This document shows positions 9,858 through 64,000 of a DNA stretch of 64,000 bases, piece after piece. Position numbers and translations under genes: made by a program. How positions within the stretch are numbered: the stretch's first letter is position 1; each line of letters starts with the position of its first letter. The stretch comes from Patescibacteria group bacterium. GTDB lineage: Bacteria; Patescibacteriota; Patescibacteriia; XYB2-FULL-38-15. The DNA is taken from positions 363,302-427,301 of the forward strand of contig JBAZJZ010000001.1 in the NCBI GenBank assembly GCA_041650995.1, read 5' to 3'. The notes beneath the pieces were generated by a model that did no database searches, had not been told where the DNA came from, and was given only the letters and a program-made list of their open reading frames with translations.

Positions 9858-9882
9858 GTTTAATTTGTCCACAGGACTTTCT

Positions 9883-9918: not shown

Positions 9919-9953
9919 AGAGACGGGCGTCCTAGACCGAGCGAATCCCGAGC

Positions 9954-10568
9954 CTAGAACTTCCGGCAGGAGGCCGAACCGTGATTCGGAAGAGCGCTAC
10001 CGCCCCAGCGCCAATCAAGCACGGTCCGACCGCTGATCACACGAAGACAGGCCACATCCTCGCGCTGCTTACGACGAACGGAACCCGGCAGGTCCATGAC
10101 GTGGCCGTCGCGGCGCGTGGTGTCGCTCACAACCTCGGGGTACTGGATGTAGGCCGAAACGGCTTCGAGCACCGTGAGGCCGAGTTCGTTCTTTGCGAAG
10201 TTGTGGCGACAGTCGACCACCGAACGGTTCCGGTTTTGACGGCCATCCTGCATCCGAATCCAAAAGGGAACTTCTGGATTACTGTGCAGAGCGTTCCACA
10301 ATTCGAAGGTTTTGTCGCTGCCGTCGAAGTCGATGTTGCCGCAAGCGCAGAGCCTCTTGAGCGGCAGCCGCGACTCCACGAGCACGAGGAGCGGAAAATC
10401 CTTGTCCGGAAGACGAAGCTGCGGAGGAATCTTGGGAATGGTCGCGAGGTACTTCTCGAAACTCGGAAAATCGAGCTCATGGCCGATGCCCGGCTCGCTG
10501 TTTCTCAAACGCGCCGTCTGGATCTCGTGCAGTTGGGCCACGTGGCCAAGATCGAAAAGGTCTCCCAT
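9954..10568 (-). CDS. G1: GC-rich cassette protein of unknown function (about 204 aa)
   Basis: AGGAGAAAAAAG-ATG Shine-Dalgarno; third-codon-position GC very high on the minus strand; own promoter and terminator. Confidence 0.5.
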   Translation of the reverse strand: MGDLFDLGHVAQLHEIQTARLRNSEPGIGHELDFPSFEKYLATIPKIPPQLRLPDKDFPLLVLVESRLPLKRLCACGNIDFDGSDKTFELWNALHSNPEVPFWIRMQDGRQNRNRSVVDCRHNFAKNELGLTVLEAVSAYIQYPEVVSDTTRRDGHVMDLPGSVRRKQREDVACLRVISGRTVLDWRWGGSALPNHGSASCRKF

Positions 10569-10621
10569 CTTTTTTCTCCTTCCATCCCGCGGCAGTTCCG
10601 GAGACAGCGCTTTGGCCATAA

Positions 10622-10703
10622 CCGGAATAAACCGAAGGACAGCTCGTCGCCGAACCCATTCCGGCGAACATTTTATTATTGTCTGTTTAAACAAAAAAGT
10701 CAA
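10622..10703 (-). promoter_or_regulatory. G1 promoter (TTGACT-17-AATAAT) and GC-rich hairpin leader
   Basis: minus-strand TTGACT at 10703-10698 and AATAAT at 10680-10675; ccggaat..attccgg hairpin at 10622-10664. Confidence 0.4.
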
Positions 10704-10738
10704 GCGTCTTGGCGCTCGGCTTTCACAAAAAATTAAAT

Positions 10739-11416
10739 TTATTTTATCACGCTTCCCTTAAACTTTTCTCCCTTTAAAAATTTTCTAAAGTTATCTAAAT
10801 GATTTGCTTTCATAATTACAACTTCCATTCCCCATTTTTCCGCAAAACGCGAAGCAATTGGATCAAACGGCGCGTGCATGCGCGGAATCCATTTACTCCC
10901 GACCATTTTCCTGTACTCTGCCCATTTTAGATTTTTGATAGGCCTGGCGTTTTTAAACTTTTTAGGATTTTTATCATAAACGTAATCCGTATTGGTTAAA
11001 TTTATTACTTGTTTCGCACCAAAATTTTTTGCCCACAAAATCGCGTCTTTGTCTGACGAACACCCCGGCAACCAGCCAGAAGCAATTATTATTTTTTTAT
11101 TAGTTTTAATTTTCTCTGTCGGATTAATAGCCACTTTTTCATACGCGGCCTCGCTAAAAATCACCCTCACTAACTCTGCGTTCAATTTTGTCGCGGCAAT
11201 ACCAAGCCAATCTAAATCAACGTTTTTAATCTTTGCTAATTTTTTCGCCGCCGCGTTATATTTTTTATTTGTCCCTCCTCCGCCGGCCACTATTACCGCC
11301 CGCCCGCCATTTTTAATAAAATCCAAAATCGCCCGACGAAAATTTTTTAAAAAAATCGTGTCCACTTCGTCTGGCACGATAACTGATCCGCCGAGAGAAA
11401 CTATTAATGTTTTCAT
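10739..11416 (-). CDS. amino-acid-kinase family protein, archaeal-type UMP kinase-like
   Basis: MKTLIVSLGGSVI...VIVAGGGG glycine-rich kinase motifs. Confidence 0.55.
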   Translation of the reverse strand: MKTLIVSLGGSVIVPDEVDTIFLKNFRRAILDFIKNGGRAVIVAGGGGTNKKYNAAAKKLAKIKNVDLDWLGIAATKLNAELVRVIFSEAAYEKVAINPTEKIKTNKKIIIASGWLPGCSSDKDAILWAKNFGAKQVINLTNTDYVYDKNPKKFKNARPIKNLKWAEYRKMVGSKWIPRMHAPFDPIASRFAEKWGMEVVIMKANHLDNFRKFLKGEKFKGSVIK

Positions 11417-14265: not shown

Positions 14266-14333
14266 AAAATTAAATTAAAATTACTTCTTATAATTATACT
14301 AAATTTTTTACCAAAATACCATTGTGCCAGCTC

Positions 14334-14362
14334 TTGACAAAATAAAAAAACAATGCCAAGAT
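14334..14362 (+). promoter_or_regulatory. G2 promoter (TTGACAAAA-17-CAAGAT)
   Basis: consensus -35 hexamer with 17-bp spacer. Confidence 0.45.
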
Positions 14363-14386
14363 GAGGCGAGGAAAAGGAGGTATTTT

Positions 14387-14758
14387 ATGGCCCAATCAGC
14401 GCGACCGGAGACTCCCAGACTGTATCGCCTCACGATTCGCCGCCCATCATCCGATCCAAAGACGCCAGAACTCATGGACATCGTCAGCGAAGCGTTTCTG
14501 TTCACCAAGCCGGACGGATTCCCCATGACCGAAGCCATCGCCAAACAGAGAGCCACGAGAGTCCAGGAAACACTGCCGCCGGGCTGGGAAGCCAAGGTCA
14601 CGGAAGAGCCCTTCCTTGTCACGCATGGCACGCCGGCAATCGTCGGCACCTGCCGACGCGCGACTTGCCAGAATTTCGGCATTGGGGCTCCAAATCGCTT
14701 CCGCTGCCCCGAGTGCGGCGAGCTGACCGCGATCGAGATGGTCGCAACCGTAGAGTAG
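14387..14758 (+). CDS. G2: GC-rich cassette protein (123 aa) with C-terminal Cys4 zinc-ribbon
   Basis: AAAAGGAGG-N6-ATG; C..C...C..C at the C-terminus; high GC at third codon position. Confidence 0.55.
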   Translation: MAQSARPETPRLYRLTIRRPSSDPKTPELMDIVSEAFLFTKPDGFPMTEAIAKQRATRVQETLPPGWEAKVTEEPFLVTHGTPAIVGTCRRATCQNFGIGAPNRFRCPECGELTAIEMVATVE

Positions 14759-20494: not shown

Positions 20495-20521
20495 TCATTG
20501 TTCCCCGGAAAGGAGAATTCC

Positions 20522-20995
20522 ATGGAAACCACGAGCGCCGACAAGCGCCAAAATCCCGTTCAAAATCAGTTTGAGCGTCTGGTCGCTGCCTTGCGGATGG
20601 AAGAATCCGCCGTGGCCGACTGGCTCGAGGAAACGCGGGACGACTTGGCCGGTATTTTCGGCGAGACGGAACTTGCCCTGGCCTGGGAAAACATCTCTTT
20701 TCTCTCCTACATCTGGGTGATGCTCGGCACGATCGAAAAGATGAGGGAGAAGGGCCGGTTGCCCACGATCACCGTCAACTCCTACCTACAAGCCACTCGC
20801 GAGTGGAACGACCGGGAAATCCGCGCTCAACTGGAGTGTGAGATCCTCAAGGCCATGCAGACGTTCCAACGCGAATCTTACGAAGACTTCGAAACTCTCC
20901 TCAGCGGTTCTCCTTCCGAGAACCAGAGGGCAGAAAGCTGTTGCCGCGGGAAGCTAGCAAAGCTCCTGCGTTTGGTCAGACTCTCTCAGCAGTAA
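20522..20995 (+). CDS. G4: GC-rich cassette protein, helical, unknown function (157 aa)
   Basis: AAAGGAGAA-N4-ATG; start METTSADKR. Confidence 0.55.
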   Translation: METTSADKRQNPVQNQFERLVAALRMEESAVADWLEETRDDLAGIFGETELALAWENISFLSYIWVMLGTIEKMREKGRLPTITVNSYLQATREWNDREIRAQLECEILKAMQTFQRESYEDFETLLSGSPSENQRAESCCRGKLAKLLRLVRLSQQ

Positions 20996-35152: not shown

Positions 35153-35241
35153 AATATTTGATAAAAACAACCAATTACTTAATTACTACCAATTACTTAA
35201 TTACAACGAGGTAATTAGGTAATTGCTATTTTATTATTTTG

Positions 35242-35499
35242 CTATTTATCCCCCTCAATTTCTTCAAGTTCCCACGTGTCGGCTTTTATTTTTTTTACCA
35301 CCACCTCTGCGTTTTCCGCTTTTGTCCCACGCGCGAGCGTGCCGACGTTAAATTTCAAATTCTCCGGATTTATTTCCGAACCATGTTCAATCACGCTGCC
35401 AAGGCCAATGACAATTTTTGTCACCTTCTTCAATTTATTTTTCTCGGCATGATCCAAAACTAATTTTAAAATTCTATCTGCTTCATGTAAGTCGTGCAT
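35242..35499 (-). CDS. hypA: HypA-like Ni-insertion protein, N-terminal domain only (no zinc finger)
   Basis: MHDLHEAD N-terminal MHE Ni-binding motif; 85 aa; no CxxC pairs. Confidence 0.45.
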   Translation of the reverse strand: MHDLHEADRILKLVLDHAEKNKLKKVTKIVIGLGSVIEHGSEINPENLKFNVGTLARGTKAENAEVVVKKIKADTWELEEIEGDK

Positions 35500-35536: not shown

Positions 35537-36802
35537 TTAATGCGTCGCGCAAGTCATGCAAGGATCATAAGCGCGGACCATCATATTTATTTTCCATCTT
35601 CTGTCTCGTTCATCTTTAATGTCTGCCTCATTCAAATATTTTTCTAAATCATTTTCCAAATTGTCCAAAAACTGCGCTGTTGGCGTGACAATATTGCAAG
35701 CGCGAACAATGCCGTATTTATCAATTTTATAATAATGATAAAGCGTGCCTCGCGGCGCCTCGGTCGCGGCCAAACCTTCAGAATTTTTTAAAGTATGTTT
35801 CACCATTAAAATTCTTGATTTCTCACGCAAATATTCTTTAAGTAGTTTTCTAACTTCTTCAACGCAATGGACGAGTTCCACGGCCTGCGCGTAAATATTA
35901 TGGAAAGTGTTGTAAGTCAAAATTTTTCCTGATGGCTTGTCAAAAAAAGTTAAAAATTTTTTTGCTTCGGGATTCAAATAGCGATGGCTCAAATTCAATC
36001 GCGCAATCGCGCCAGGCATAAAACTTTTTCCAAGATGGCGCGCGCGTTTTGTCGGATCACCGCTTGTTTGCTTCTCCACAATTTCTTTATAAAATTTTTT
36101 CACCGGACGGGACGATTGCACAGTTGATCCAATTATCCCATCATAAAACGGATATTCCCGCGGCGCGACAAGCCCAGTGTATTCCGTTTTCCTCTCATAT
36201 TTTGGATAGTCAAGCGCCCGAAAAAATTTTGCCGCGCCAATCGCCGCTTCAAGTACCGACTCGGTTTCGTCAATTAATCCTCTAATAATTTTATCATCAA
36301 GCACTCTTCTAAATCCGCCGATCTCCGTCACAATCAAATGCATATCCCGGCCGCCGACCACATCTTTAATTTTATTCCCAAAATCTCGAATTAAAATAAT
36401 TTTTTGGGCGAGGTTTGGATATTTTTTTATTAAATCAACATCGCTTTCATATTTAAAAAAATCCCCGAGCGATAAAAAGAAAAGATGCGCCGCGTGGCTT
36501 TGAATCGGCTCGGCAAGGACCAAAACTTTTCGGAGCCGCTCAATCTGCGGATTAATTTTCACGCCAAGAGCGTTTTCAATCGCTTTAATGCTTGTGATAT
36601 TATGCGCCACCGAACATATTCCACAAATGCGCGAAGTAACAATCGGCGTCTCAATATAATTTCGATTTAAAATTATTGATTCAATCAATCGCGCGCCAAT
36701 CGTAACTTTCATTTTAGCGTTTTTAATGTCGCCAGCGAGCATGTCGGCAAAAAAACTGGCGTGACCTTCAATTTTCGCGAGATGGCTTATTTTTATTTTC
36801 AT
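35537..36802 (-). CDS. NiFe hydrogenase large (alpha) subunit, group-3-like
   Basis: RICGICSVAH N-terminal and DPCMTCATH C-terminal NiFe ligand motifs. Confidence 0.85.
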   Translation of the reverse strand: MKIKISHLAKIEGHASFFADMLAGDIKNAKMKVTIGARLIESIILNRNYIETPIVTSRICGICSVAHNITSIKAIENALGVKINPQIERLRKVLVLAEPIQSHAAHLFFLSLGDFFKYESDVDLIKKYPNLAQKIILIRDFGNKIKDVVGGRDMHLIVTEIGGFRRVLDDKIIRGLIDETESVLEAAIGAAKFFRALDYPKYERKTEYTGLVAPREYPFYDGIIGSTVQSSRPVKKFYKEIVEKQTSGDPTKRARHLGKSFMPGAIARLNLSHRYLNPEAKKFLTFFDKPSGKILTYNTFHNIYAQAVELVHCVEEVRKLLKEYLREKSRILMVKHTLKNSEGLAATEAPRGTLYHYYKIDKYGIVRACNIVTPTAQFLDNLENDLEKYLNEADIKDERDRRWKINMMVRAYDPCMTCATH

Positions 36803-36828
36803 ATTTTCTTATATTTACTGATTAGACA

Positions 36829-37014
36829 ATTATATCAAAAAATTAAAATTAAAACAAAGCCCCCGAGTGATGCCCGGAGTGACACGCTTTAGCGTGTTAC
36901 TTACCGAAATAACAGCCTAAAGGCTGTCAGTCCGATTTATTAAAAATAAAAAAATGCCCCGTTCCATTTCTTCGGCTTTGTGAAAGCTTCAGATTTGAAA
37001 CGGGGCCAAGAGAC
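36829..37014. repeat. conserved structured flank, copy 1 (G5 terminator hairpins plus outward TGATATAAT promoter)
   Basis: about 80% identical to 56973-57176; three hairpins; extended -10 on the minus strand at 36837-36829. Confidence 0.7.
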
Positions 37015-37080
37015 CGAAAGTCCAAGGATCCGAGTGACCCGGCCTTTTTGAAGGGCCGAGTTACCCAGGATCCAAGGACC

Positions 37081-37542
37081 CTACTTGCGACGGAGCACCC
37101 GGAAGCCGCCGCCCCAGTCGTAGCCGAGCCAGCGCCAGTCCTGGCACCAGCCGTCGTCGTGCCAGCGGACGCACGCCACGAGCCCGCGGTCGACCGGGAA
37201 CCGCCAGTCCGGGAAGACGAAGACGACCTTGCCGCGGAGAGCGGCAGGGACCTCGTCCTGGTGGGCGAGGAGGAACTCGCAGTCCTCCTTGCCGAGGTTG
37301 GCGCCGAGCCTCTCGGCGCGGGCGACCATCACGCGGCCGACCACCGAGGTCTCGCCCTCCCAGAGGAAGGAGAGGATCTCGTAGGTGCGGCCGCCGATGG
37401 TCATCTCGGTGGGGAGGGAGGACTTGACGAGCGTCTCGGCGAACTCCCGCACCGCCTCGGTGTTGTCCGAGGAGACGAGTGCCGAGAACAGTTCGTCGCC
37501 GATCTCGCGCTGCAGATGGGCCGTAGAACGCAGAGTATCCAT
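37081..37542 (-). CDS. G5: GC-rich cassette protein, paralog of G8 (153 aa)
   Basis: shared block LPTEMT.GGRTYEILSFL...LGKEDCEF.LAHQDE.PAALRGK.VFVFPD with G8. Confidence 0.55.
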   Translation of the reverse strand: MDTLRSTAHLQREIGDELFSALVSSDNTEAVREFAETLVKSSLPTEMTIGGRTYEILSFLWEGETSVVGRVMVARAERLGANLGKEDCEFLLAHQDEVPAALRGKVVFVFPDWRFPVDRGLVACVRWHDDGWCQDWRWLGYDWGGGFRVLRRK

Positions 37543-37784
37543 TGCCGTTTCCTTTTGCCTCCTCTTTCGAGAAAGCGCACTCCTCGCCGACCTGGCAAAG
37601 AGGAAGCGCCGGTTTCCCAGCCTTCTTTCCAAATTTTATTATTCTTCGAGCGGAACGGAGCGAAGTCGAGAAGCGGTTCTCGACACCCCGCCGAATTGGC
37701 GGGTTGCTCGAACAATAAAATAGAGAAAGAAAACCGGGAAATTAACCAAAATTTCGCTTAAAAAGAACTATTTACTAACAATTA

Positions 37785-37813
37785 AATATACCATATTTTA
37801 ATGGTTTTGTCAA
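37785..37813 (-). promoter_or_regulatory. G5 promoter (GGGGTTGACAAAA-17-TATATT), followed by about 230-nt structured leader
   Basis: minus-strand TTGACA at 37813-37808, TATATT at 37790-37785. Confidence 0.5.
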
Positions 37814-37827
37814 CCCCATTTTTCTAT

Positions 37828-37888
37828 GTCATTCCCGCGAAAGCGAGAATCCAGATTACTGGATCCCCGGGTCAAGCCCGAGGATGAC
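37828..37888. mobile_element. MITE-like double-hairpin repeat, copy A
   Basis: GTCATTCCCGCGAAAGCGAGAATCCAG-ATTA-CTGGATCCCCGGGTCAAGCCCGAGGATGAC; terminal inverted repeats GTCAT(T/C)CCC / GGGGATGAC. Confidence 0.65.
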
Positions 37889-37894
37889 AAAATA

Positions 37895-37925
37895 AAAACC
37901 CGACTTTCGTCGGGACTCCGCCTTT
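37895..37925 (-). terminator. terminator after hydrogenase small subunit
   Basis: cccgacgaaagtcggg followed by a T-run on the minus strand. Confidence 0.5.
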
Positions 37926-37942
37926 AAAATCAAATAAAAAAA

Positions 37943-38710
37943 TTATTTTTCAATTCTCAAAAAATCATCCTCCGCGCCATAGGTTTGCATAATTTCCCGG
38001 AGATATTTTTTTCCGACTAATTTCTGAATATTTTTCAAATGTTTTTTAATTTGCGGTCCGGCTCCGGGAAGCGGTCCGCGGCAACCATAACAAAATCTTT
38101 TACTGCGCAAACATATTGCTTTGCATCCGCCAAGAGTGATCGGCCCCATGCATGGCTCCCCTTTTTGCAAAAGACACTCATAACCTTGAGCCTGACACTC
38201 GAAGCACACCGGTCTTTGAGGAATTCTTGGCTCCCGTCCAAAAATAATATCTGAAATAACTCGATAAAATTCATCTTGATCAATCGGGCAGCCTGGAACA
38301 GTGTAATCAACTTTTACCACCTTAGAGAGCGGCACAACTCTGGAATTTTGAATGCGCTGATATTTTGGATAGACGTATTTGACCTTTTCGTTTTTCAATT
38401 GCTCTGAATAATTTTTTATCTCCTGAACTCCGCCCAAATGAGCGCAACTGCCGATGGCCACCAAAATTTTTGATTTTTTTCTCAACTCCTTTAAATATTT
38501 TATGTCTTCCTTGGTAAGCGGCGTCCCTTCAATCACGGCCACGTCATAACTCGGACGCTCCCGTTTTTCTTCCGCCCAAGAAAAATTTCCCAAATCAAAA
38601 ACCTGAAAAAGATCCAATAATCTTTTTCCCAAATTTAGGATTTCCACCTGGCAACCCTCACAACAAGTCATACTGGCAATGGCAAGTGTCGGCTTCGGCA
38701 TATGTTTCAT
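37943..38710 (-). CDS. NiFe hydrogenase small (delta) subunit
   Basis: N-terminal CCEGC cluster motif and further Cys clusters. Confidence 0.8.
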   Translation of the reverse strand: MKHMPKPTLAIASMTCCEGCQVEILNLGKRLLDLFQVFDLGNFSWAEEKRERPSYDVAVIEGTPLTKEDIKYLKELRKKSKILVAIGSCAHLGGVQEIKNYSEQLKNEKVKYVYPKYQRIQNSRVVPLSKVVKVDYTVPGCPIDQDEFYRVISDIIFGREPRIPQRPVCFECQAQGYECLLQKGEPCMGPITLGGCKAICLRSKRFCYGCRGPLPGAGPQIKKHLKNIQKLVGKKYLREIMQTYGAEDDFLRIEK

Positions 38711-38844
38711 TATAGCACTTTTTAAAGGGTATGAAAAACTGTATAATTTAATCAGGATTATGGCCTGAGCCTGTCGAAGGCCAACTTATCAATAGCACCC
38801 CCTTCGACTTCGCTACGCTTCGCTCAGGGAATAAATGGATATAT

Positions 38845-39588: not shown

Positions 39589-40308
39589 TTATAAATACTT
39601 TAACGTCCTCCCAGTCCAATATTCAAGCCGTTGCGCCGTTTCCCTTGAAATAATTTCGACCGCTCTACCCCAATGGTAAGAAACCGTATCCCCAGCTTTA
39701 ACTCGCGGAAGAATCAACGGGTCGCGTTTTATTTCTATCAATTTTTCCTTGCCGATTTTTGGTAAATATTTACCCCGTAATTTTATAAGCGTTTTTGCGC
39801 GTATAACAAGCGCGTCACCCTTAATCAACTTTACTTTTCCCCACCCGATACGGCAAAGTTCTTGGCCAATCGTACCGCGTTCTACCCTGCCGGTAATGCT
39901 ACCAACCACAAAAACGTGAAAGCTATGGTGCGGCCTATGCCTTTTATGAACCCGCGAAGCAATCTTCTCGGCCGCGGCAGCAGTCATTCGTCCTTGATTA
40001 GCAAAACTGCGTACAAGATCAGCTAAATCCTTAGAGCTAACATTTTCTAATAAATTATTTCCAATCCAATAAGCATCAAATACTCGCGGATCAAACCAAT
40101 CGGCGATTTTATTGCTCTCGGCGATAAGTTTAAGATAGGGAGCTAGGGCAATAAATTCTCGAAGAATTTTTTTTAGCTGTGCGTCACTGACTTTATCTGT
40201 CGTCAAATATCGATAAAGTTTCCCCTTCCCTGCTCCCTGCGGCCCGCAAAGACCAAGCTCGTGTGGATGCAGGGAATATTTAACTCCCCTTTTAAGATAT
40301 TTTTTCAT
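39589..40308 (-). CDS. hypothetical protein adjacent to hypC
   Basis: ORF; 4-nt overlap with hypC. Confidence 0.4.
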   Translation of the reverse strand: MKKYLKRGVKYSLHPHELGLCGPQGAGKGKLYRYLTTDKVSDAQLKKILREFIALAPYLKLIAESNKIADWFDPRVFDAYWIGNNLLENVSSKDLADLVRSFANQGRMTAAAAEKIASRVHKRHRPHHSFHVFVVGSITGRVERGTIGQELCRIGWGKVKLIKGDALVIRAKTLIKLRGKYLPKIGKEKLIEIKRDPLILPRVKAGDTVSYHWGRAVEIISRETAQRLEYWTGRTLKYL

Positions 40309-40541
40309 TTTTTAACCCCTCTATTTTTTATTTTTGAAGGCTCACGAAATAATGCCAAAAATTCCTTTGCTTCTGCTTCGGAAATTTTTTTAATCCCCAC
40401 ATCTCCCTGTACCAATATCCACTCTCCCTTCTTTGTCCCCGATAAAAGCGACGTATCAACATTAAAAACCTTGCCACCATTTTTTATGGTGGCCTTATTT
40501 TTAGAAATTTTTTCAATTTTACAGGGGATCCCAAAGCACAT
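40305..40541 (-). CDS. hypC: hydrogenase assembly chaperone HypC/HupF
   Basis: MCFGIP N-terminus (Cys2) typical of HypC; start taken at the internal Met. Confidence 0.65.
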   Translation of the reverse strand: MCFGIPCKIEKISKNKATIKNGGKVFNVDTSLLSGTKKGEWILVQGDVGIKKISEAEAKEFLALFREPSKIKNRGVKK

Positions 40542-40549
40542 AAAAAATC

Positions 40550-41461
40550 TCAAACCTTAAAACTCAAAACTTTTTCTTTTTTAAATTTTGACATCAAATC
40601 TACGACGACAATCACCCCCAAAAATATTATCAAGCTACCAAAGAAAATTTGCCAATCAAAAATTCCTTTCTGCGCCATTTCAAGTAAACTCGTTATCGGC
40701 GCGCCAAGCGCGAGAACGCAGGCCGCCGAAGAAACCGGGATATATTTTAAACCGGCATACCAGGTTAAAACATAGCCCAAGAGGAAAATCGCCGTTATCC
40801 AGACCCAACTTAACTCTGCCACGCTCATACTTCCGAGCAGTTTCATCTGCCCGGTCGCCGTCCAAAAAATAAAAATAAATAAAAATCCAAAAAACATTCT
40901 GCCCCAAGCAACAATTTTTGGAGAAATATTCTCCAATGCTTTTTTAGAAATAATTTGTTCTGCCGCCCAAAATAACGTAGCAACTAAAACTAAAAACTCA
41001 CCATACCCGAATTGTAATCCATTAAAAATTTTCAAAAGAAATATGTTGCCCAAAAGAAGCAATGAAGCACCAATCACTAAATTTTTACTTACTTTTTCTT
41101 TCAAAACTAACACCGCTAAAACAATTACATAAATAAATAAAGTTTTATGGATAAAAGATGTACTCGCCCCGCTTGTCGCGGCCAATCCCTTAAAAAAAAG
41201 TAAAAACGGAATACTGCCGCCAACCAAACCGATTAAAACCAACACCCCCCATTCTTTAATTTTCAATTTTGCCAACAACTTCCATTCCTTAAACCAAAAA
41301 ATTAAGCACAACAAAATTACGGCCACAACTATATTTTTCAAGCCGGTGAAAATATCTGAATTAATAACTTTAACACCGAATTGATTTATAAAAATAGAAA
41401 CGCCGGAAATTATTGCTGTTCCTAAAACTAACAAATATCCCTTCTTCTTATTAATGTTCAT
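40550..41461 (-). CDS. EamA/DMT-family transporter
   Basis: 10-TM, two EamA-like halves. Confidence 0.65.
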   Translation of the reverse strand: MNINKKKGYLLVLGTAIISGVSIFINQFGVKVINSDIFTGLKNIVVAVILLCLIFWFKEWKLLAKLKIKEWGVLVLIGLVGGSIPFLLFFKGLAATSGASTSFIHKTLFIYVIVLAVLVLKEKVSKNLVIGASLLLLGNIFLLKIFNGLQFGYGEFLVLVATLFWAAEQIISKKALENISPKIVAWGRMFFGFLFIFIFWTATGQMKLLGSMSVAELSWVWITAIFLLGYVLTWYAGLKYIPVSSAACVLALGAPITSLLEMAQKGIFDWQIFFGSLIIFLGVIVVVDLMSKFKKEKVLSFKV

Positions 41462-41476: not shown

Positions 41477-42295
41477 TTAAATCGCGCCTTTGATATCCTT
41501 CAACTCCGCCCAGGAAAAAACCGGACCGTCTTGGCAGACGAAAAAACTGCCGACGGCGCAATGGTTGCAGACGCCAACGCCGCAATGCATCCGCCGTTCA
41601 AGCGAAAGAAAAATATCACTATCTAAAAAAGCTGATTCTTTTAATTTTTTGATAACAAATTTATACATCACTGGCGGACCGCAGAGAAATGCGACTGGAT
41701 TTTCGGCAAGAGGCTCCTTTTCAAACAAAACCGTAACCAATCCCTGGATTACCGGGCAAGATAATTTAAATTTATCCGTGGGTTTATCAAGACATAAATG
41801 AAAATCAATATCATTTTTCATCCACAGATCATATTCATTGCGGAAAAGTAGATCATCTTCAGTTCTCGCTCCGTAGAAAATTTGGACTTTTTTATATTGA
41901 TTTCGGTTTTTTACGATTTCAAAAATTGCCGTCCGAACCGTTTCAAGTCCCAAACCGCCAACAACAATAAGTAGATTTCTTTGTTTAGCCAATTCTAAGG
42001 GAAACGGCCGGCCATACGGCCCGCGCACCCCGACTTTATCCCCCACCTTTAGAGCGTGCATCGCTTCTGTCACCATTCCGACATTTCTTGCGCAAACCTG
42101 AAATTTATTTTTCAATGAAGCATCGGAACAAAGACAAAACGGCGCCTCTCCATATCCCGGCAGAGAAATTTCCACAAATTGACCGCTTCGAACCATAAAT
42201 CCGCGCGGGGCAACAAGGGTAAATAATTTTGAATTTGAACCCTCGTCCTCAATTTTTAAAATTTTTACCGATTGCGTTTCGTATTGATTTTTCAT
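41477..42295 (-). CDS. hydrogenase gamma subunit (FAD/NAD-binding, 2Fe-2S)
   Basis: oxidoreductase FAD/NAD-binding fold; C-terminal CGVGVCNHC. Confidence 0.65.
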   Translation of the reverse strand: MKNQYETQSVKILKIEDEGSNSKLFTLVAPRGFMVRSGQFVEISLPGYGEAPFCLCSDASLKNKFQVCARNVGMVTEAMHALKVGDKVGVRGPYGRPFPLELAKQRNLLIVVGGLGLETVRTAIFEIVKNRNQYKKVQIFYGARTEDDLLFRNEYDLWMKNDIDFHLCLDKPTDKFKLSCPVIQGLVTVLFEKEPLAENPVAFLCGPPVMYKFVIKKLKESAFLDSDIFLSLERRMHCGVGVCNHCAVGSFFVCQDGPVFSWAELKDIKGAI

Positions 42296-46507: not shown

Positions 46508-46586
46508 GTAACGGGTAACGCGTAACGGGTAACGCGTACAAGCGTATCAAAAATTACCAATTACTAATTACCAATTACCAATTACT
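46508..46586. repeat. tandem heptanucleotide repeats (GTAACGS)x4 and (CAATTAC)x4-5 filling the tsf-rpsB spacer
   Basis: direct reading of gtaacgggtaacgcgtaacgggtaacgc and attaccaattactaattaccaattaccaattact. Confidence 0.8.
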
Positions 46587-47379
46587 CCGATAAATTATTT
46601 TTTTCTTCCTTCACCTCTTCTGCTTTTGCTTCTTCCTCTTCCACAACGACCGGGGCTGCCGGTTTTTCCGGAGCCGCACCTCTTTTTGCTTCAAACTCCG
46701 CCTTCCCTTCTTTCACGGCCGCGGCCACGAGCCCAACCATCATTTCAATTGCTTTTACCGCGTCGTCGTTTGAGGGAACCGGATAATCAACGTCATCCGG
46801 ATTGATATTTGTGTCACATAACGCGACAACCGGAACCTTTCTTTTTCTCGCTTCAGCCACCGCGGTTTTTTCCGCTTTGACATCAACGACAAAAATCGCT
46901 TCAGGCAATTTTTTTAAAGTTTCAATGCCGCCAACCAATTCTTCCAACTTCACGATTTCTTTTTGAAAATTCAGCTGCTCTTTTTTGGTGTATTTCGCGA
47001 GTCCGCCGGTCGCTGTCTTATTTTTCAAATCAGTGAAGCGGTCCGTTACGGTTTTGATGGTTTTGAAATTCGTGAAAGTTCCTCCGAGCCAACGTGTCGT
47101 GACATAAGGCATGCCGGCATCTTTCGCGTAGCGTTTCACAATTTCTTTGGCCTGCTCTTTTGATCCAACAAAAAGAACAACTCCGCCCGCGGCTGTTGTT
47201 TTTTTAATAAAATCTAGCGCCTCTTTTAATTTTTTTGCCGTTTCTTCTAAGTTGATGATGTGGATATCGCTCCGCTCTCCGAAAATATACGGCTTCATTT
47301 TCGGATGCCATTTAGAAGCCTTGTGCCCAAAATGAACACCGGCCTGGAGCATTTCCAACATTGTTGGGATCTCTGACAT
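46582..47379 (-). CDS. rpsB: 30S ribosomal protein S2 (acidic C-terminal extension)
   Basis: LEAGVHFGH motif; start at MSEIPT. Confidence 0.9.
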   Translation of the reverse strand: MSEIPTMLEMLQAGVHFGHKASKWHPKMKPYIFGERSDIHIINLEETAKKLKEALDFIKKTTAAGGVVLFVGSKEQAKEIVKRYAKDAGMPYVTTRWLGGTFTNFKTIKTVTDRFTDLKNKTATGGLAKYTKKEQLNFQKEIVKLEELVGGIETLKKLPEAIFVVDVKAEKTAVAEARKRKVPVVALCDTNINPDDVDYPVPSNDDAVKAIEMMVGLVAAAVKEGKAEFEAKRGAAPEKPAAPVVVEEEEAKAEEVKEEKNNLSE

Positions 47380-47639: not shown

Positions 47640-48332
47640 TCAGGGCCCGTCGTGACCGTAGACCCTGAAGCGCTCACCGGTCTCCGGCCGTTCGTAGGCC
47701 AGATACCAGGAGACGCCCACGCTGAGCGGATCCTCGCCCGGACGACGTGAACGTGTCGCGTCCACCTCACCGAGCATCAGATCCGTCGGTCGGACCTCCT
47801 CCTTGCGACGCGACGGGAGAAGGAGAATCTCCTCGCGCTTGAGTGCGGTCGGCAGCATGGGTGAGGTGTAGTAGAAGTCGCCCTGGGCCGTCACGTAGAT
47901 CTTGAGCGGCCAGAGCGACTCGCCGCCGTCGTGCGTCCGCAGAACCTTGATCTTGCGAACCAGGTGATCGGTCGGCTGAACCTGATCCATCGGACGGCCC
48001 GGCCGCGGACAGAGTCTGTCCCACTCATCGTCCGAGAGAGGGACATCACAGAAGAAGTTCGGGCAGACACCCAGGATAAGCGGACTGCCGCAGTTCCTAC
48101 AGCGTTCCGGCGTACCACCACAGGTGTGCAGCATCACGCCCCCGCCGATGACGATCTGGCTGGCCTGACACTGAACGTACCGAGCCACCTTGACCACTCG
48201 TACGAAGGGCTCCACGCACTCATTGCCGTAGATGCTGTTCTGGAACAGCACCCGGGCGTAGTGGGCCATGACGCGCCTCTCGGCCGCGAAGCAGCCGACG
48301 CAGATCTCGTTCTGGCTCATCTTCTCCTCCAT
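47640..48332 (-). CDS. G6: GC-rich cassette protein, Cys-rich (multiple CxxC zinc-ribbon-like pairs), 230 aa
   Basis: CVGC..C..C, CGGTPERCRNCG, CPNFFC; high GC at third codon position. Confidence 0.5.
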   Translation of the reverse strand: MEEKMSQNEICVGCFAAERRVMAHYARVLFQNSIYGNECVEPFVRVVKVARYVQCQASQIVIGGGVMLHTCGGTPERCRNCGSPLILGVCPNFFCDVPLSDDEWDRLCPRPGRPMDQVQPTDHLVRKIKVLRTHDGGESLWPLKIYVTAQGDFYYTSPMLPTALKREEILLLPSRRKEEVRPTDLMLGEVDATRSRRPGEDPLSVGVSWYLAYERPETGERFRVYGHDGP

Positions 48333-48380
48333 CCTCTGGCTGTTCCTCAGCCAAGGTCCAAGTCCATCTTGGAACTTATA

Positions 48381-48409
48381 AAAATATCACAGAAAATTAT
48401 TTTTGTCAA
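48381..48409 (-). promoter_or_regulatory. G6 promoter (GGGGTTGACAAAA-17-TATTTT)
   Basis: minus-strand TTGACA at 48409-48404. Confidence 0.4.
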
Positions 48410-50547: not shown

Positions 50548-50622
50548 TGAAGGAAGGTGGCCCTAAATCTCGGCCCGACGGACGGGACGAGTTAAAATAG
50601 GGAAGGTTGAGGAGGATAGGGA

Positions 50623-50832
50623 ATGTTGAATCCGATTTGGGTCGACGGAATACGCCTCGTCGACGACAATGGCCAACCGCTTTGGGCGGATCGTGGCCCC
50701 ATCGAAATTTCGTCGAGGCGACCGCATCAGCCCGGTGGCGAAGGGAATGACGACATGTTCTTCCCGGACGACGAAGAAGCGGCCAGGCGGCGAAGCGACG
50801 CCCGGAAGAGAGACCGTCGGCGCCAGCAGTAG
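50623..50832 (+). CDS. G7: GC-rich small cassette protein (69 aa), acidic then Arg-rich tail
   Basis: GAGGAGGATAGGGA-ATG Shine-Dalgarno; followed by about 150 nt GC-rich untranslated region and a terminator. Confidence 0.4.
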   Translation: MLNPIWVDGIRLVDDNGQPLWADRGPIEISSRRPHQPGGEGNDDMFFPDDEEAARRRSDARKRDRRRQQ

Positions 50833-50987
50833 TATCCCGTCCCACCATCAACGTGAGAGCTGCGAGCTTCGCTCGCCCACTCTCCGTTTCAAGTTCGCGC
50901 CCCCCCTCCCGGAAGCGGCGCGAAGCCCGCGTAGCGGAAAACGGGGAACACGAGTTCCCCGCCCCCCCCTCCTCGCTACCGGGCCCC

Positions 50988-51050
50988 AGCCCGTGGATTG
51001 TTTTGGAGAGATCTCCCCTCCTTCAAGCAGTCCACGGGCTCCTTTTTTTA
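50988..51050 (+). terminator. G7 terminator
   Basis: agcccgtgga...tccacgggct stem followed by a T-run. Confidence 0.5.
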
Positions 51051-51065
51051 TGCTACAATAATCGC

Positions 51066-51950
51066 ATGACAATAAAACAATCTCTCATTTTGGCGACAAA
51101 AATTTTACAAAAAAATAAACTATCCTCCCCTGCTCTGGACGCCGAAGTCCTCCTATCTTTTGTTATAAAAAAACAAAAAGAATTTTTGTACGCACATTCT
51201 GAAAAAAAATTAACCGCGGCGCAATTTTTAAAATTTAAAAAACTGATCGCCCGGCGTTCTAAACATGAGCCTATCGCCTACATCATTGACCACAAATTTT
51301 TCTACGGCCTGAATTTTTTTGTTGATAAAAATGTTTTAATCCCCCGCCCGGAAACGGAAACACTAGTTGAAACTGTAATCGATAAAAATCCAACTGCAGT
51401 CGTTGACGTGGGAACCGGCAGCGGCGTTATTGCCATCTCACTCGCTTATCATCTACCCAAAACGAAAATTTTTGCCACGGAAATTTCGCCGTCCGCGGCC
51501 AAAATTGCGCAAAAAAATATTCTTCATCATAAAGTCACCATTACTTTGCTTCGCGGAAATCTTCTTGAACCTTTTTTAAAAAATTTAAAATCAAAAATAA
51601 AAAACTTAAAATCTTTAATCGTTGTCGCCAATCTCCCCTATCTCAAAACTCGTCAATGGAAAAAAACTCTGCCAGAAATAAAAAAATATGAGCCACGGCA
51701 AGCTCTGGACGGCGGTGAAGATGGTTTGAATTATTACCGCGAACTTTTACAGCAAATCGAATTACTAATTACCGATTACCAATTACCAATTACTTCAATC
51801 TTCGAAATTGATCCATCTCAAAAAAAAACCATTGCGAAATTGGTCAACTGCCGCTTCCCTGCCGCGAAAATTGAAATAAAAAAAGACCTCGCCGGCCGAG
51901 ATCGGGTTGTTATATTTAAAATAAATCCCAAAAAACAATCAATTACTTAA
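51066..51950 (+). CDS. prmC: release factor glutamine methyltransferase PrmC/HemK
   Basis: VGTGSG SAM motif, NLPY (NPPY-type) motif, C-terminal DLAGRDRV; start at MTIKQ after the G7 terminator. Confidence 0.75.
   Translation: MTIKQSLILATKILQKNKLSSPALDAEVLLSFVIKKQKEFLYAHSEKKLTAAQFLKFKKLIARRSKHEPIAYIIDHKFFYGLNFFVDKNVLIPRPETETLVETVIDKNPTAVVDVGTGSGVIAISLAYHLPKTKIFATEISPSAAKIAQKNILHHKVTITLLRGNLLEPFLKNLKSKIKNLKSLIVVANLPYLKTRQWKKTLPEIKKYEPRQALDGGEDGLNYYRELLQQIELLITDYQLPITSIFEIDPSQKKTIAKLVNCRFPAAKIEIKKDLAGRDRVVIFKINPKKQSIT
51759..51793 (+). repeat. five tandem heptamers (NAATTAC) inside the prmC coding sequence
   Basis: gaattac taattac cgattac caattac caattac. Confidence 0.8.
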
Positions 51951-52007
51951 TTACTATTTACCAATTACTGAAATCTGCAAATGGTAATTAGTAACTGGTA
52001 ATTACGG
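51939..52007. repeat. CAATTAC/GTAATTA heptamer repeats arranged as an inverted repeat in the convergent spacer
   Basis: caattacttaattac...tggtaattagtaactggtaattac. Confidence 0.7.
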
Positions 52008-57176: not shown

Positions 57177-57189
57177 GAACCTTCTGTCT

Positions 57190-57250
57190 GTCATTCCCGC
57201 GAAAGCGGGAATCCAGATTACTGGATCCCCGGGTTAAACCCGAGGACGAC
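57190..57250. mobile_element. MITE-like double-hairpin repeat, copy B
   Basis: GTCATTCCCGCGAAAGCGGGAATCCAG-ATTA-CTGGATCCCCGGGTTAAACCCGAGGACGAC. Confidence 0.65.
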
Positions 57251-57264
57251 ATTGAGGTTGTGGG

Positions 57265-57789
57265 CTACGCGGCTTTGCGACGGAGCACCCGAGCGCCGTC
57301 GTCCCAGCCGACGTCGAGCCAGCCCCAGTACTGGTACCAGCGGTCGCCGCGCCAGCGGAGGTACGCCACGCACTCGCGGCCGACGGGGTACCGCATGTCC
57401 GGGAAAACGAAGACGATCTTGCCGCGGAGTGCGGCGGGAATCTCGTCCTGGTGGGCGAGGATGAACTCGCAGTCCTCCTTGCCGAGGTAGGCGCCGAGCT
57501 TCTCGGCGCGGGCGACCATGGTGTGGCCGTGGACGCGCTCCTCGCCCTCCCGGAGAAAGGAGAGGATCTCGTAGGTGCGGCCGCCGACCGTCATTTCGGT
57601 GGGGAGTTCCAGCTCCGTGGGCTTCGCGGGCTGCCTCGCGATGAGTGCGCCATCGAGCGTCGTGGCCAACAAATCCTGATGCAGAATCCAAAATTGGGCC
57701 AACTCCGGCTCCATGTCCCGCGGCAGAGAGCGCAGCACTGCCGCACCGAGTTCCGCAAACTGATCCGTTCCGAGTTTCTTCTTTCCCAT
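57265..57789 (-). CDS. G8: GC-rich cassette protein, paralog of G5 (174 aa)
   Basis: AAGGAGGAAGCG-ATG; conserved block shared with G5. Confidence 0.55.
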   Translation of the reverse strand: MGKKKLGTDQFAELGAAVLRSLPRDMEPELAQFWILHQDLLATTLDGALIARQPAKPTELELPTEMTVGGRTYEILSFLREGEERVHGHTMVARAEKLGAYLGKEDCEFILAHQDEIPAALRGKIVFVFPDMRYPVGRECVAYLRWRGDRWYQYWGWLDVGWDDGARVLRRKAA

Positions 57790-63703: not shown

Positions 63704-63762
63704 GTCATCCCCGACCTGATCGGGGATCCAGTAATCTGGATTCCCGCTTTCGCGGGAATGAC
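63704..63762. mobile_element. MITE-like double-hairpin repeat, copy D (opposite orientation)
   Basis: GTCATCCCCGACCTGATCGGGGATCCAG-TAAT-CTGGATTCCCGCTTTCGCGGGAATGAC, reverse complement of the A/B type. Confidence 0.65.
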
Positions 63763-63769
63763 AAATCAT

Positions 63770-64000
63770 ATGATTCTTGGAATAAAAAAACTACACGAAT
63801 TAGTTAAAGAAATAAATTTAGTAGAAAATTTATGCGACCGGGAAAAAAATAATCCCGAAGGCGCCGGTTTTGATTTGCGGCTCGGAGAAATTTACGAATT
63901 GGAAGGCGACGGATTTTTGGGTGTGGAAGAACGCAACACGCCGACCATTAAACTTGTGGCAAAAAATGAAGAAGGAAAACCGGAGAGCGAAAATTATTTT
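63770..64000 (+). CDS. dCTP deaminase/dUTPase-family protein, N-terminal part (runs off window end)
   Basis: GAGFDLRLGE motif. Confidence 0.45.
   Translation, partial: MILGIKKLHELVKEINLVENLCDREKNNPEGAGFDLRLGEIYELEGDGFLGVEERNTPTIKLVAKNEEGKPESENYF

What the first reader, a model, noticed from the sequence alone, without database searches (positions are those of the whole stretch)
35537..38710. GC-rich cassette G5 is inserted between the NiFe hydrogenase small and large subunit genes
The delta/small subunit (37943-38710) ends with its own terminator at about 37895-37925. Then come MITE copy A, the G5 promoter and leader, G5, terminator hairpins, the outward TGATATAAT promoter, and then the alpha/large subunit (35537-36802). 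In related group-3 hydrogenase operons the subunits are contiguous and co-transcribed. Here the catalytic subunit appears to depend on the promoter supplied by the inserted element. The hydrogenase maturation genes nearby are also atypical: hypA lacks its zinc-finger domain and hypC is separated from the other genes.
Basis: partly seen in the sequence, partly recalled or inferred. Interest (0 to 1): 0.65.

Follow-up and report, generated by a model that had tools for sequence, protein, structure and literature searches.

The report
Hypervariable-protein gene cassette splitting a hydrogenase operon
A 1.1-kb GC-rich insert really does sit between the two core hydrogenase genes of this tiny-genome (CPR) bacterium, and the gene it carries belongs to a family that reverse-transcriptase elements (DGRs) hypermutate; this is an interesting case of a known kind of system, not a new one.

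Summary
Window 36806-37941 (about 1136 nt, up to 70% GC in a 41.6% GC window) separates the NiFe hydrogenase small (delta) and large (alpha) subunit genes. In eight relatives with alpha 74-94% identical, the two genes abut (…TAATATG…), so this is a derived insertion.

G5 (37081-37542, minus strand, 153 aa) belongs to a large Patescibacteria-only family of DGR variable (target) proteins. In four other contigs a family member is followed by a template repeat, Avd and a reverse transcriptase. In three of them the template differs from the gene's 3' end only, or almost only, at template adenines (18/0, 18/0 and 14/2 mismatches). One contig also has a second, non-adjacent target.

G5 keeps the IMH-like 3' end and a long post-VR hairpin. 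It differs from its in-window paralog G7 mainly at those adenine sites (p about 1e-7). No template repeat or reverse transcriptase lies in the 64-kb window, so current activity is unproven.

The insert starts with a terminator and ends with terminators plus a TGATATAAT promoter 26 nt upstream of alpha. Promoter dependence of alpha is therefore plausible but untested. The short HypA and detached HypC are lineage-wide traits, not linked to the insertion. The GC-richness belongs to the target gene family, not to a foreign donor.

The parts
37943..38710 (-). NiFe hydrogenase small (delta) subunit gene. The probable true start is ATG 38701. A TGCTATAAT promoter-like site lies at 38717-38709.
   Evidence: PF01058, E 6.6e-26. 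83-95% identical to relatives from residue 4 onward. Extended -10 match.
36806..37941 (-). Inserted segment, about 1136 nt, with a 3-nt 'AAT' ambiguity at the junctions. It is absent from eight relatives.
   Evidence: blastn against L008 breaks at window 37942 and 36805. Junctions in relatives read …GAAAAATAATATGAAAATAAA….
37890..37915 (-). Intrinsic terminator T1 (CCCGACGAAAGTCGGG plus a T-run). It is the first element of the insert and would stop transcripts coming from delta.
   Evidence: Terminator scan. The 22-nt sequence is identical in L018, right after the delta stop, and occurs nowhere else in the window or the other fetched loci.
37820..37889 (.). Palindromic MITE-like repeat. It is an independent small element, not part of the G5 unit.
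   Evidence: Three copies in the window: 37820-37889, 57182-57251 and about 63730-63770. Weak sub-threshold Rfam similarity to FtrB.
37785..37813 (-). G5 promoter: TTGACA, 17 nt, TATATT, with an upstream TG.
   Evidence: 11 of 12 consensus matches. The promoter and the following roughly 30 nt are nearly identical in Falkowbacteria locus L002.
37543..37634 (-). Conserved 5' leader with three hairpins. The third hairpin pairs the GAGGAGG Shine-Dalgarno-like sequence.
   Evidence: Alignment of 7 loci gives 24 pairs, 6 with compensatory changes, and an invariant P2. Fold z = -6.3.
37081..37542 (-). G5 coding sequence, 153 aa. It belongs to a DGR variable (target) protein family, with an N-terminal helical part and a C-type-lectin-like domain.
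   Evidence: GC3 0.92. 128 homologs, all in Patescibacteria. 1400 clusters at 50% identity. AF2 pLDDT 93.4. Best fold matches are C-type lectin domains, but weak.
37084..37205 (-). Putative variable region (VR). Diversified positions use NNC codons between invariant Trp, Leu and Arg residues. The last 18 nt (37084-37101, CGGGTGCTCCGTCGCAAG) are IMH-like.
   Evidence: Register taken from verified TR/VR pairs. 17-18 of the 25 G5/G7 differences fall on TR adenines, p about 1e-7. The 18 nt are identical to the VR and TR 3' ends of L007.
37020..37080 (-). Long GC-rich inverted repeat (hairpin) starting directly after the stop codon. It sits where DGR targets carry the hairpin that promotes retrohoming.
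   Evidence: Fold. Its inner part is conserved in L002. The role is inferred from PMC5758913.
36941..37007 (-). Terminator T2: stem GGCCCCGTT…AACGGGGC followed by a T-run.
   Evidence: Fold. Conserved downstream of G7.
36851..36934 (-). Two small hairpins and a third terminator-like hairpin (36879-36861).
   Evidence: Repeat families D15 and D16 are shared with the G7 3' region at 86-96% identity. Terminator scan. Fold.
36829..36837 (-). Outward-facing extended -10 promoter TGATATAAT, 26 nt upstream of the alpha ATG.
   Evidence: Part of the module shared with G7, whose similarity ends right after TATAAT. The motif is 4-fold enriched in the window, and 7 of the 8 sites are on the minus strand, including those before delta, alpha and the gene after G7. 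L018 has TGGTATAAT at the equivalent place.
35537..36802 (-). NiFe hydrogenase large (alpha) subunit gene. It is intact, with RICGIC and DPCMTCATH motifs.
   Evidence: PF00374. 421 aa, full length, 94% identical to L008.
35242..35499 (-). Short HypA (85 aa, no zinc module). This is a lineage-wide feature.
   Evidence: PF01155. An 85-aa ortholog is present in all 13 related loci.
57265..57789 (-). Paralog G7. It has the same C-terminal domain, VR scaffold and 3' module, but a different N-terminus. A MITE is inserted right after its stop codon.

Best explanation
G5 is a self-contained expression cassette for a DGR variable (target) protein. It was inserted into the junction between the hydrogenase delta and alpha genes in the recent ancestry of this Patescibacteria genome.

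The protein. It has an N-terminal helical segment and a C-type-lectin-like domain. The last roughly 40 codons of that domain form a variable region. In related genomes a neighbouring template repeat is reverse-transcribed by a DGR reverse transcriptase, with Avd, with errors at adenines. The cDNA then replaces the variable region, rewriting NNC codons between fixed Trp, Leu and Arg scaffold residues.

The situation here (inferred). G5 and its paralog G7 lie far from any reverse transcriptase. They are therefore either non-adjacent targets served in trans by a DGR elsewhere in the genome, or former targets.

Effect on the hydrogenase (inferred). The insert starts with a terminator that should end the delta transcript. 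It carries its own strong promoter and a structured leader for G5. It ends with terminators followed by an extended -10 promoter, which most likely now drives alpha, hypA and downstream genes. This would replace the ancestral co-transcription and translational coupling.

GC content. The high GC is a property of this target gene family in every host, not a mark of a foreign donor. Its cause is unexplained.
For: Insertion:
- Eight relatives (alpha 74-94% identical) have delta and alpha abutting.
- Homology to L008 breaks at window 37942 and 36805.
- Both hydrogenase genes are intact.

DGR target family:
- Homologs in L002, L004, L007 and L021 are each followed by a TR-like copy of their 3' end, then bAvd, then an RVT_1 reverse transcriptase.
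- TR/VR mismatches are 18 at TR adenines and 0 elsewhere in L007, 18 and 0 in L021, and 14 and 2 in L004.
- A second, non-adjacent copy (L005) on the same contig as L007 differs from that TR only at adenines within the VR.
- The C-terminal roughly 35 residues are hypervariable between invariant Trp residues in 45 homologs.

G5 itself:
- The 18-nt 3' end is identical to the IMH of L007, and a long hairpin follows the stop codon directly.
- G5 and G7 differ at 25 of the last 122 nt. 17-18 of these fall on adenines of the verified TRs (p about 1e-7), and 22 of the 25 are at codon positions 1 or 2.
- The AF2 model has pLDDT 93, and the best fold hits are C-type lectin domains.

Insulating architecture:
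- Terminator and promoter calls, and the fold of the 3' UTR.
- The 3' module, including TTGATATAAT, is duplicated after G7.
- Extended -10 motifs are enriched, and most lie on the gene-coding strand.

GC content:
- Target genes are 54-69% GC in loci of 35-50% GC, while the adjacent RT and Avd genes are 37-44% GC.

Known background: CPR DGR targets lack recognisable domains, and non-adjacent targets exist (PMC8144416, PMC5758913).
Against: - No template repeat, Avd or reverse transcriptase lies in the 64-kb window. The rest of the 567-kb contig could not be read.
- None of the 120 best RT homologs lies on that contig. G5 may no longer be diversified.
- Fold matches to C-type lectins are weak (Foldseek E 0.05-1.5, TM 0.38-0.55), and known DGR variable proteins such as Mtd or TvpA were not among the 50 best matches shown.
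- In L002 the TR/VR pair has 24 non-adenine mismatches, so not every family member is an active target.
- Promoter and terminator function rests on consensus matches and folding only.
- The mechanism of insertion is unknown. There is no clear target-site duplication and no recombinase nearby.
- L018 carries an ORF-less insert with homologous ends at the same junction. This complicates a simple one-event history.
Confidence: 0.78

Rival explanations
1. G5 and G7 are orphaned former DGR targets. The genome has lost its DGR, or never had one because the cassettes arrived alone. The variable regions are frozen, and the genes persist as ordinary or decaying genes.
For: No RT, Avd or TR in 64 kb. 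No RT on the 567-kb contig among the 120 best RT hits. In G7 a MITE replaces the post-VR hairpin. In L002 the TR/VR pair has already drifted, with 24 non-adenine mismatches.
Against: Both ORFs are intact and have strong promoters. G5 keeps a perfect IMH-like end and the hairpin. G5/G7 differences concentrate on TR-adenine sites. Non-adjacent targets served in trans exist in this family. About 500 kb of the contig was never examined.
Confidence: 0.35
2. G5 is a foreign gene recently acquired from a high-GC donor or a phage, unrelated to DGRs. Its GC content marks its origin.
For: 68.6% GC and GC3 0.92 against about 41% for host genes. No Pfam, NCBIfam, PHROGs or PADLOC match.
Against: Every homolog that a source names comes from Patescibacteria. 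The family is GC-rich in each of eight further low-GC loci examined, while the neighbouring RT and Avd genes are host-like. Only 1 of 2.9 million viral contigs carries a relative. The TR/VR adenine signature is present in four loci.
Confidence: 0.04
3. The gene between delta and alpha is an ancestral operon member that the relatives lost.
For: L018, the most distant relative, also has an insert at the same junction with an identical 22-nt terminator and a homologous promoter end.
Against: Eight intermediate relatives have compact junctions of varied sequence with stop and start nearly overlapping. This would need many precise deletions. L018 has no ORF. A paralogous cassette, G7, sits in an unrelated context, and homologs elsewhere lie in non-syntenic places.
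Confidence: 0.04
4. The arrangement is an assembly artefact, a chimeric join at the repeat shared by G5 and G7.
For: G5 and G7 share about 500 nt at 85-96% identity, and the sequence comes from a MAG.
Against: Both flanks of the insert belong to the same hydrogenase unit that is contiguous in relatives. A chimera would need two coincident misjoins. The shared repeats are too divergent for k-mer collapse. An independent metagenome (L018) shows a related insert at the same junction.
Confidence: 0.02

Closest known systems
DGR variable (target) proteins with a C-type-lectin fold (Bordetella phage Mtd, Treponema TvpA, archaeal AvpA), and the domain-less targets of CPR 'clade 2' DGRs (PMC8144416, PMC5758913, PMC5006420)
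   Same: A C-terminal variable region of about 120 nt with AAC-type codons in the template. An adenine-only TR/VR mismatch pattern in family members. A GC-rich IMH-like 3' end followed by an inverted repeat. Avd and RT as neighbours in four loci. A CLec-like predicted fold. No other recognisable domain, as reported for CPR targets.
   Different: G5 itself has no TR, Avd or RT within at least 27 kb. The whole gene, not only the VR flanks, is strongly GC-rich relative to the host. The family has no Pfam model. Fold similarity to solved CLec domains is weak.
Non-adjacent or remote DGR target genes (for example the Treponema denticola and Legionella multi-target DGRs, PMC5758913)
   Same: Several paralogous targets share the VR scaffold and IMH. 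One contig (L005 and L007) shows an adjacent and a non-adjacent target matching a single TR.
   Different: [quoted passage not shown] Here a CPR family shows multi-target use. For the window itself the trans DGR has not been found.
Mobile elements that carry outward-facing promoters (IS elements that create or supply promoters, promoter-bearing gene cassettes); this comparison rests on my own background knowledge
   Same: The insert interrupts an operon, terminates upstream transcription, and provides a promoter-like site directly upstream of the downstream gene.
   Different: No transposase, inverted terminal repeats, attC-like site or clear target-site duplication. The mechanism of movement is unknown.
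Group 3 (probably 3b-type, four-subunit) NiFe hydrogenase loci of CPR bacteria
   Same: Alpha, delta and gamma subunits with HypA and HypC nearby. The gene order is conserved with 13 related metagenome loci.
   Different: The delta/alpha junction is split by 1.1 kb here, and by an ORF-less 450 nt in L018. The subgroup assignment and the beta subunit were not tested here.

Membership tests
DGR variable (target) gene | A variable region at the 3' end of the ORF with a cognate template repeat that differs only at template adenines. | not testable with these tools
   Met for family members: L007 18 adenine / 0 other mismatches, L021 18/0, L004 14/2, and L005 adenine sites only within the VR.
DGR variable (target) gene | A DGR reverse transcriptase, usually with Avd, in the same genome. 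| not testable with these tools
   Absent from the 64-kb window. Present next to homologs in L002, L004, L007 and L021. The 120 best RT homologs include none from the 567-kb contig, but more than 8000 hits were not listed.
DGR variable (target) gene | Homology to targets with verified TR/VR pairs, and a VR scaffold in register. | tested here: met
   50-67% amino-acid identity over the full length to the targets in L002, L004 and L021, and 59% to L007 over residues 42-156. The exact scaffold pattern TGGNNCTGGCTC…CGGGTGCTCCG is shared with the L005, L006 and L007 VRs and with the L007 TR.
DGR variable (target) gene | Diversification confined to TR-adenine positions (NNC codons) between paralogs or homologs. 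| tested here: met
   17-18 of the 25 G5/G7 differences in the last 122 nt fall on adenines of three verified TRs (hypergeometric p about 1e-7), and 22 of 25 are at codon positions 1 or 2. The C-terminus is hypervariable in 45 homologs.
DGR variable (target) gene | A GC-rich IMH at the VR 3' end, followed by a GC-rich inverted repeat. | tested here: met
   CGGGTGCTCCGTCGCAAG (37101-37084) is identical to the 3' ends of the L007 VR and TR. A hairpin of about 61 nt at 37080-37020 follows the stop codon directly. The feature is defined in PMC5758913.
DGR variable (target) gene | A C-type-lectin (or Ig) fold that displays the variable residues. | tested here: inconclusive
Transposable element or MITE-borne cassette | Terminal inverted repeats, a target-site duplication, or a transposase or recombinase. 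| tested here: not met
   Only a 3-nt junction ambiguity ('AAT'). No terminal inverted repeats for the whole insert. The internal MITE (37820-37889) is a separate element with an unlinked third copy. No recombinase in the hydrogenase neighbourhood.
NiFe hydrogenase delta-alpha operon (co-transcribed, coupled subunits) | Small and large subunit genes adjacent. | tested here: not met
   1140 nt apart in the window, against 4-14 nt, counted as in the observation check, in eight relatives.

The most novel reading that the evidence does not exclude
The unit as a whole comprises an upstream terminator, a strong promoter, a conserved three-hairpin leader, a GC-rich CLec-type target gene with IMH and hairpin, a terminator, and an outward promoter. 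On this reading it is a portable 'DGR target cassette' that spreads within and between CPR genomes independently of the RT. It can land inside operons with little polarity because it insulates itself and re-promotes the downstream gene. The recurrent, end-homologous inserts at the same hydrogenase junction (window and L018), and the family-wide GC enrichment, would then be footprints of its mode of movement or maintenance, for example RT- or recombination-mediated copying with GC-biased conversion.
Probability: 0.12. Interest if true: 0.75.

Novelty: new member of a known kind. Interest (0 to 1): 0.45.

Why it matters
This result turns an unexplained 'GC-rich cassette' into an identifiable object: a non-adjacent DGR target gene.

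- **Annotation.** A large, unannotated Patescibacteria protein family (about 1400 clusters at 50% identity) is a DGR target domain. That gives an annotation handle for many hypothetical genes.
- **Detection of DGR targets.** CPR DGRs of this family can serve more than one target, including non-adjacent ones. Metagenome surveys that require RT adjacency miss these.
- **A compositional marker.** Strong local GC enrichment marks these target genes in low-GC CPR genomes. The cause is unexplained and testable.
- **Hydrogenase biology.** This is a natural case in which the catalytic subunit has been uncoupled from the small subunit and probably placed under a promoter brought by the insert. That could alter subunit stoichiometry in an organism with a minimal metabolism.

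Tried and rejected
**Template repeat in the window.** I searched with a degenerate scaffold pattern and with an adenine-tolerant sliding comparison. Only G5 and G7 themselves were found.

**Reverse transcriptase in the window.** A YxDD motif scan and tblastn with the RT and Avd of L002 found nothing.

**Reaching the rest of this genome.** All three routes failed:
- P0001 is not on record in the look-up of encoding contigs.
- The genome is not among the GTDB representative contigs.
- The RT homolog search returned more than 8000 hits, and none of the listed 120 lies on the 567-kb contig.

**Protein family libraries.** Pfam, NCBIfam, PHROGs, PADLOC and a PDB sequence search with the family profile gave no meaningful hit for G5.

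**RNA families.** Rfam gave nothing at gathering score in the insert. The only sub-threshold hit is FtrB similarity of the MITE.

**Explanations rejected.**
- A high-GC donor or phage origin.
- An ancestral operon member.
- A misassembly, because both flanks belong to the same hydrogenase unit.
- A target-site duplication. Only a 3-nt ambiguity and a weak AT-rich similarity (GAAAAAT versus GAAAAT) are present, which is not significant.


Full report
**1. The observation**

The window is 41.6% GC. On the minus strand it encodes:
- the NiFe hydrogenase large subunit at 35537-36802 (PF00374, E 1e-28);
- the small/delta subunit at 37943-38710 (PF01058, E 6.6e-26);
- an 85-aa HypA at 35242-35499;
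- HypC at 40305-40553;
- an FAD/NAD/Fe-S gamma subunit at 41477-42295.

Between delta and alpha lie 1140 nt containing a GC island (36968-37632) that reaches 70% GC. GC-rich DNA has open frames in several phases. Only the minus-strand frame at 37081-37542 shows coding periodicity, with GC at codon positions 1, 2 and 3 of 0.68, 0.46 and 0.92. NCBI annotates its product as a 153-aa hypothetical protein of a Patescibacteria MAG (locus tag WC445_02275, contig 567 kb).

- an intrinsic terminator directly after delta, with its stem-loop at 37914-37899;
- a palindromic MITE-like repeat at 37820-37889;
- a near-consensus promoter, TTGACA-17-TATATT with TG, at 37813-37785;
- a long structured leader;
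- a strongly structured 3' UTR, z = -6.7, containing a long hairpin, a terminator and further hairpins;
- TGATATAAT at 36837-36829, 26 nt before the alpha start codon.

**2. Is it an insertion?**

A scan of metagenome contigs with the alpha protein returned 13 loci with alpha 69-94% identical. In eight of them (L008, L009, L010, L011, L012, L015, L016, L017) delta and alpha are adjacent. Typical junctions read …GAAAAATAATATGAAAATAAAAATAAGCC…, with the stop and start codons one to a few bases apart.

Nucleotide alignment to the closest relative (L008, 87% nt identity) stops at window 37942 on one side and resumes at 36805 on the other. The inserted segment is therefore about 36806-37941. There is a 3-nt junction ambiguity and no convincing target-site duplication.

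Both hydrogenase genes are full length and keep their metal-binding motifs.

Two further points on the surrounding genes:
- The 85-aa HypA is found in all 13 loci.
- The order gamma-(EamA)-hypC-DUF6390-PRTase(opposite strand)-delta-alpha-hypA-pgk is conserved in relatives that lack the insert.

These 'atypical' maturation genes are therefore lineage traits. The four-subunit operon was already split upstream of delta in the whole clade.

**3. What G5 is**

G5 has no Pfam, NCBIfam, PHROGs or PADLOC match. It does have many homologs:
- 128 in the word-indexed search. All those that a source names are from Patescibacteria (Magasanikbacteria, Falkowbacteria, Parcubacteria).
- 1400 clusters at 50% identity in the exhaustive profile search. 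The conserved core covers profile positions 40-153, and the N-termini vary.

Genomic context gave the identification. In L002 (Falkowbacteria), L004, L007 (Parcubacteria) and L021, the homolog is followed by:
- an AAC-rich copy of its own 3' end;
- a bAvd gene on the opposite strand;
- an RVT_1 reverse transcriptase.

This is the layout of a diversity-generating retroelement (DGR). The diagnostic mismatch pattern is present:

| Locus | Mismatches at template adenines | Mismatches elsewhere | Aligned length |
|---|---|---|---|
| L007 | 18 | 0 | 122 nt |
| L021 | 18 | 0 | 124 nt |
| L004 | 14 | 2 (plus a 1-nt indel) | 125 nt |
| L002 | 28 | 24 | 153 nt |

L002 is a drifted pair. On the contig that carries L007, a second family member (L005) lies apart from the DGR and also differs from that template only at adenines within the VR. 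The family therefore includes non-adjacent targets served in trans.

Other supporting evidence:
- Across 45 homologs the last roughly 35 residues are hypervariable between invariant Trp, Leu and Arg positions (…W..G.RW…W.WL…W….RVLRRK).
- The AlphaFold model is confident (pLDDT 93.4). Its best structural matches are C-type lectin domains, but with weak scores. I count the fold as weakly supportive only.
- The literature already reports that CPR DGRs ('clade 2') diversify small proteins without recognisable domains, and that non-adjacent targets exist (PMC8144416, PMC5758913).

**4. G5 itself**

No template repeat, Avd or reverse transcriptase occurs in the 64-kb window. I could not reach the remainder of the genome.

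G5 nevertheless carries the target-side features:
- Its last 18 coding nucleotides (CGGGTGCTCCGTCGCAAG) are identical to the IMH-like end of the L007 VR and TR.
- A GC-rich hairpin of about 61 nt follows the stop codon directly, at 37080-37020. This is where DGR targets carry the inverted repeat that promotes retrohoming (PMC5758913).

A paralog, G7 (57265-57789, minus strand), shares the C-terminal domain and the 3' region at 85-96% nt identity but has a different N-terminus. In the last 122 nt G5 and G7 differ at 25 positions. Of these, 17-18 coincide with adenines of the three verified templates in the same register (hypergeometric p about 1e-7), and 22 are at codon positions 1 or 2.

This is what two variable regions written from an adenine-mutagenised template should look like. 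I conclude with high confidence that G5 is a DGR variable-protein gene. Whether it is still being diversified is open, at roughly even odds.

**5. The cassette and the hydrogenase**

The insert has a suggestive architecture:
- Its first element is a terminator (T1).
- Its last elements are a terminator (T2, 37007-36941), two hairpins, a further terminator-like hairpin, and the extended -10 site TGATATAAT.

The block from T2 to TTGATATAAT is duplicated downstream of G7. There the similarity ends immediately after TATAAT, and the block again sits upstream of the next gene.

TGNTATAAT occurs 8 times in the window against 1.9 expected. Seven of the eight are on the minus strand, including the sites upstream of delta, of alpha and of the gene after G7, and the eighth lies upstream of the plus-strand gyrB-like ORF at 58271. 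It is therefore a credible promoter type for this organism.

It follows, as inference and not demonstration, that:
- delta transcripts end at T1;
- G5 is expressed from its own strong promoter;
- alpha, hypA and downstream genes are now driven by the promoter at the 3' end of the insert, without the ancestral translational coupling to delta.

**6. A complication**

L018, the most distant relative (alpha 69%), has an ORF-less insert of about 450 nt at the same junction. It begins with the identical 22-nt terminator sequence, which is found nowhere else in the window or the other loci. It contains hairpins resembling the G5 3' UTR and ends with TGGTATAAT and a homologous short 5' UTR.

Two histories are possible. 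Related elements may have entered this junction twice, or an insertion allele may have spread by recombination through the conserved flanking coding sequence. Ancestral presence with many precise losses is unlikely given the varied compact junctions in the eight intermediate relatives.

In L014 a different gene precedes alpha. The junction appears evolutionarily labile in this clade.

**7. GC content**

Target genes of this family are 54-69% GC (GC3 0.64-0.95) in host loci of 35-50% GC. The adjacent RT and Avd genes are 37-44% GC. Only one of 2.9 million viral contigs carries a relative.

The composition is therefore a family property rather than a trace of a high-GC donor. Adenine avoidance in and around the template-matched region explains only part of it, because T is depleted too and the enrichment spans the whole ORF. 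I leave this unexplained.

**8. Verdict**

The insertion is real, promoter dependence is plausible but untested, and the link to HypA and HypC is not supported.
- The element is a new member of a known kind: a non-adjacent DGR target gene of a CPR bacterium, in an unusual position that splits the catalytic core of a hydrogenase operon.
- Interest is moderate. The most novel reading still open is a portable, self-insulating DGR target cassette. I give it about 12%.

Noticed in passing
window 37543-37634 (-); also L001 3905-4003, L002 3915-4009, L003, L004 5910-6003, L006, L021: A conserved 5' leader lies upstream of G5-family genes. It has three hairpins. P2 (CCUCUUUGCC/GGCGAGGAG) is invariant in 7 loci. 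P1 and P3 show a few compensatory changes. P3 pairs the GAGGAGG Shine-Dalgarno-like sequence. It has no Rfam match and may be an undescribed cis-regulatory RNA of CPR DGR target genes.
   Followed up: partly
window 9954-10757 (-), 14303-14758 (+), 20499-20876, 47640-48386 (-), 50563-51084: Other GC-rich islands (56-62% GC) contain GC3-enriched ORFs that have no Pfam, NCBIfam, PHROGs or PADLOC hits and were not picked up as G5 relatives by tblastn with G5 (E <= 1e-4). The ORF at 47640-48386 also has a TTGACA…TG.TAT-type promoter at about 48409. I did not test whether they are also DGR targets or share the cause of the GC enrichment.
   Followed up: partly
L018 2170-2632: An ORF-less insert of about 450 nt lies at the same delta/alpha junction in the most distant relative. 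It has an identical 22-nt terminator, hairpins resembling the G5 3' UTR, and its own TGGTATAAT promoter.
   Followed up: partly
L014 1-184: In this relative (alpha 84% identical) a different ORF, not delta, ends just upstream of alpha. The delta/alpha junction has been rearranged there as well.
   Followed up: no
window 35242-35499 (-) and all 13 related loci: HypA is only 85 aa and lacks the zinc-binding module in every member of this clade. It starts MHD… rather than with the usual MHE nickel-binding motif.
   Followed up: partly
window 38701-38717 (-): TGCTATAAT lies about 8 nt upstream of the probable true delta start (ATG 38701; tblastn alignments to relatives begin at residue 4). This suggests a leaderless or near-leaderless delta mRNA.
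   Followed up: no
window 37820-37889, 57182-57251, about 63730-63770: A 70-nt palindromic MITE-like repeat (GTCATTCCCGCGAAAGCGGGAATCCAG…) has three copies. One is inserted right after the G7 stop codon, where G5 has its post-VR hairpin. It has sub-threshold Rfam similarity to the Francisella sRNA FtrB (39 bits, against a gathering score of 66).
   Followed up: partly
L004 6440-6480: The VR of this active-looking DGR target has a 1-nt insertion relative to its TR. The resulting frameshift makes the gene call read through to 244 aa.
   Followed up: no
P0241 (517 aa), P0242, P0244: Some family members contain 3-4 tandem copies of the domain. I did not check whether these are true multi-domain proteins or read-through of tandem GC-rich genes.
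   Followed up: no
window 35163-35206, 46552-46591, 51760-51799, 51931-51974: Intergenic tandem motifs AATTACCAATTACTAATTAC… recur at four places. One lies between hypA and pgk.
   Followed up: no
L002 2580-3497; L001 1367-2452: A tyrosine recombinase (L002) and an rve-type transposase (L001) lie next to G5-family genes in other genomes. This hints at mobile contexts.
   Followed up: no
window 9701-9836 (-): A ribosomal protein L10 leader (RF00557, 62.7 bits) directly abuts the GC-rich island at 9862-10660.
   Followed up: no
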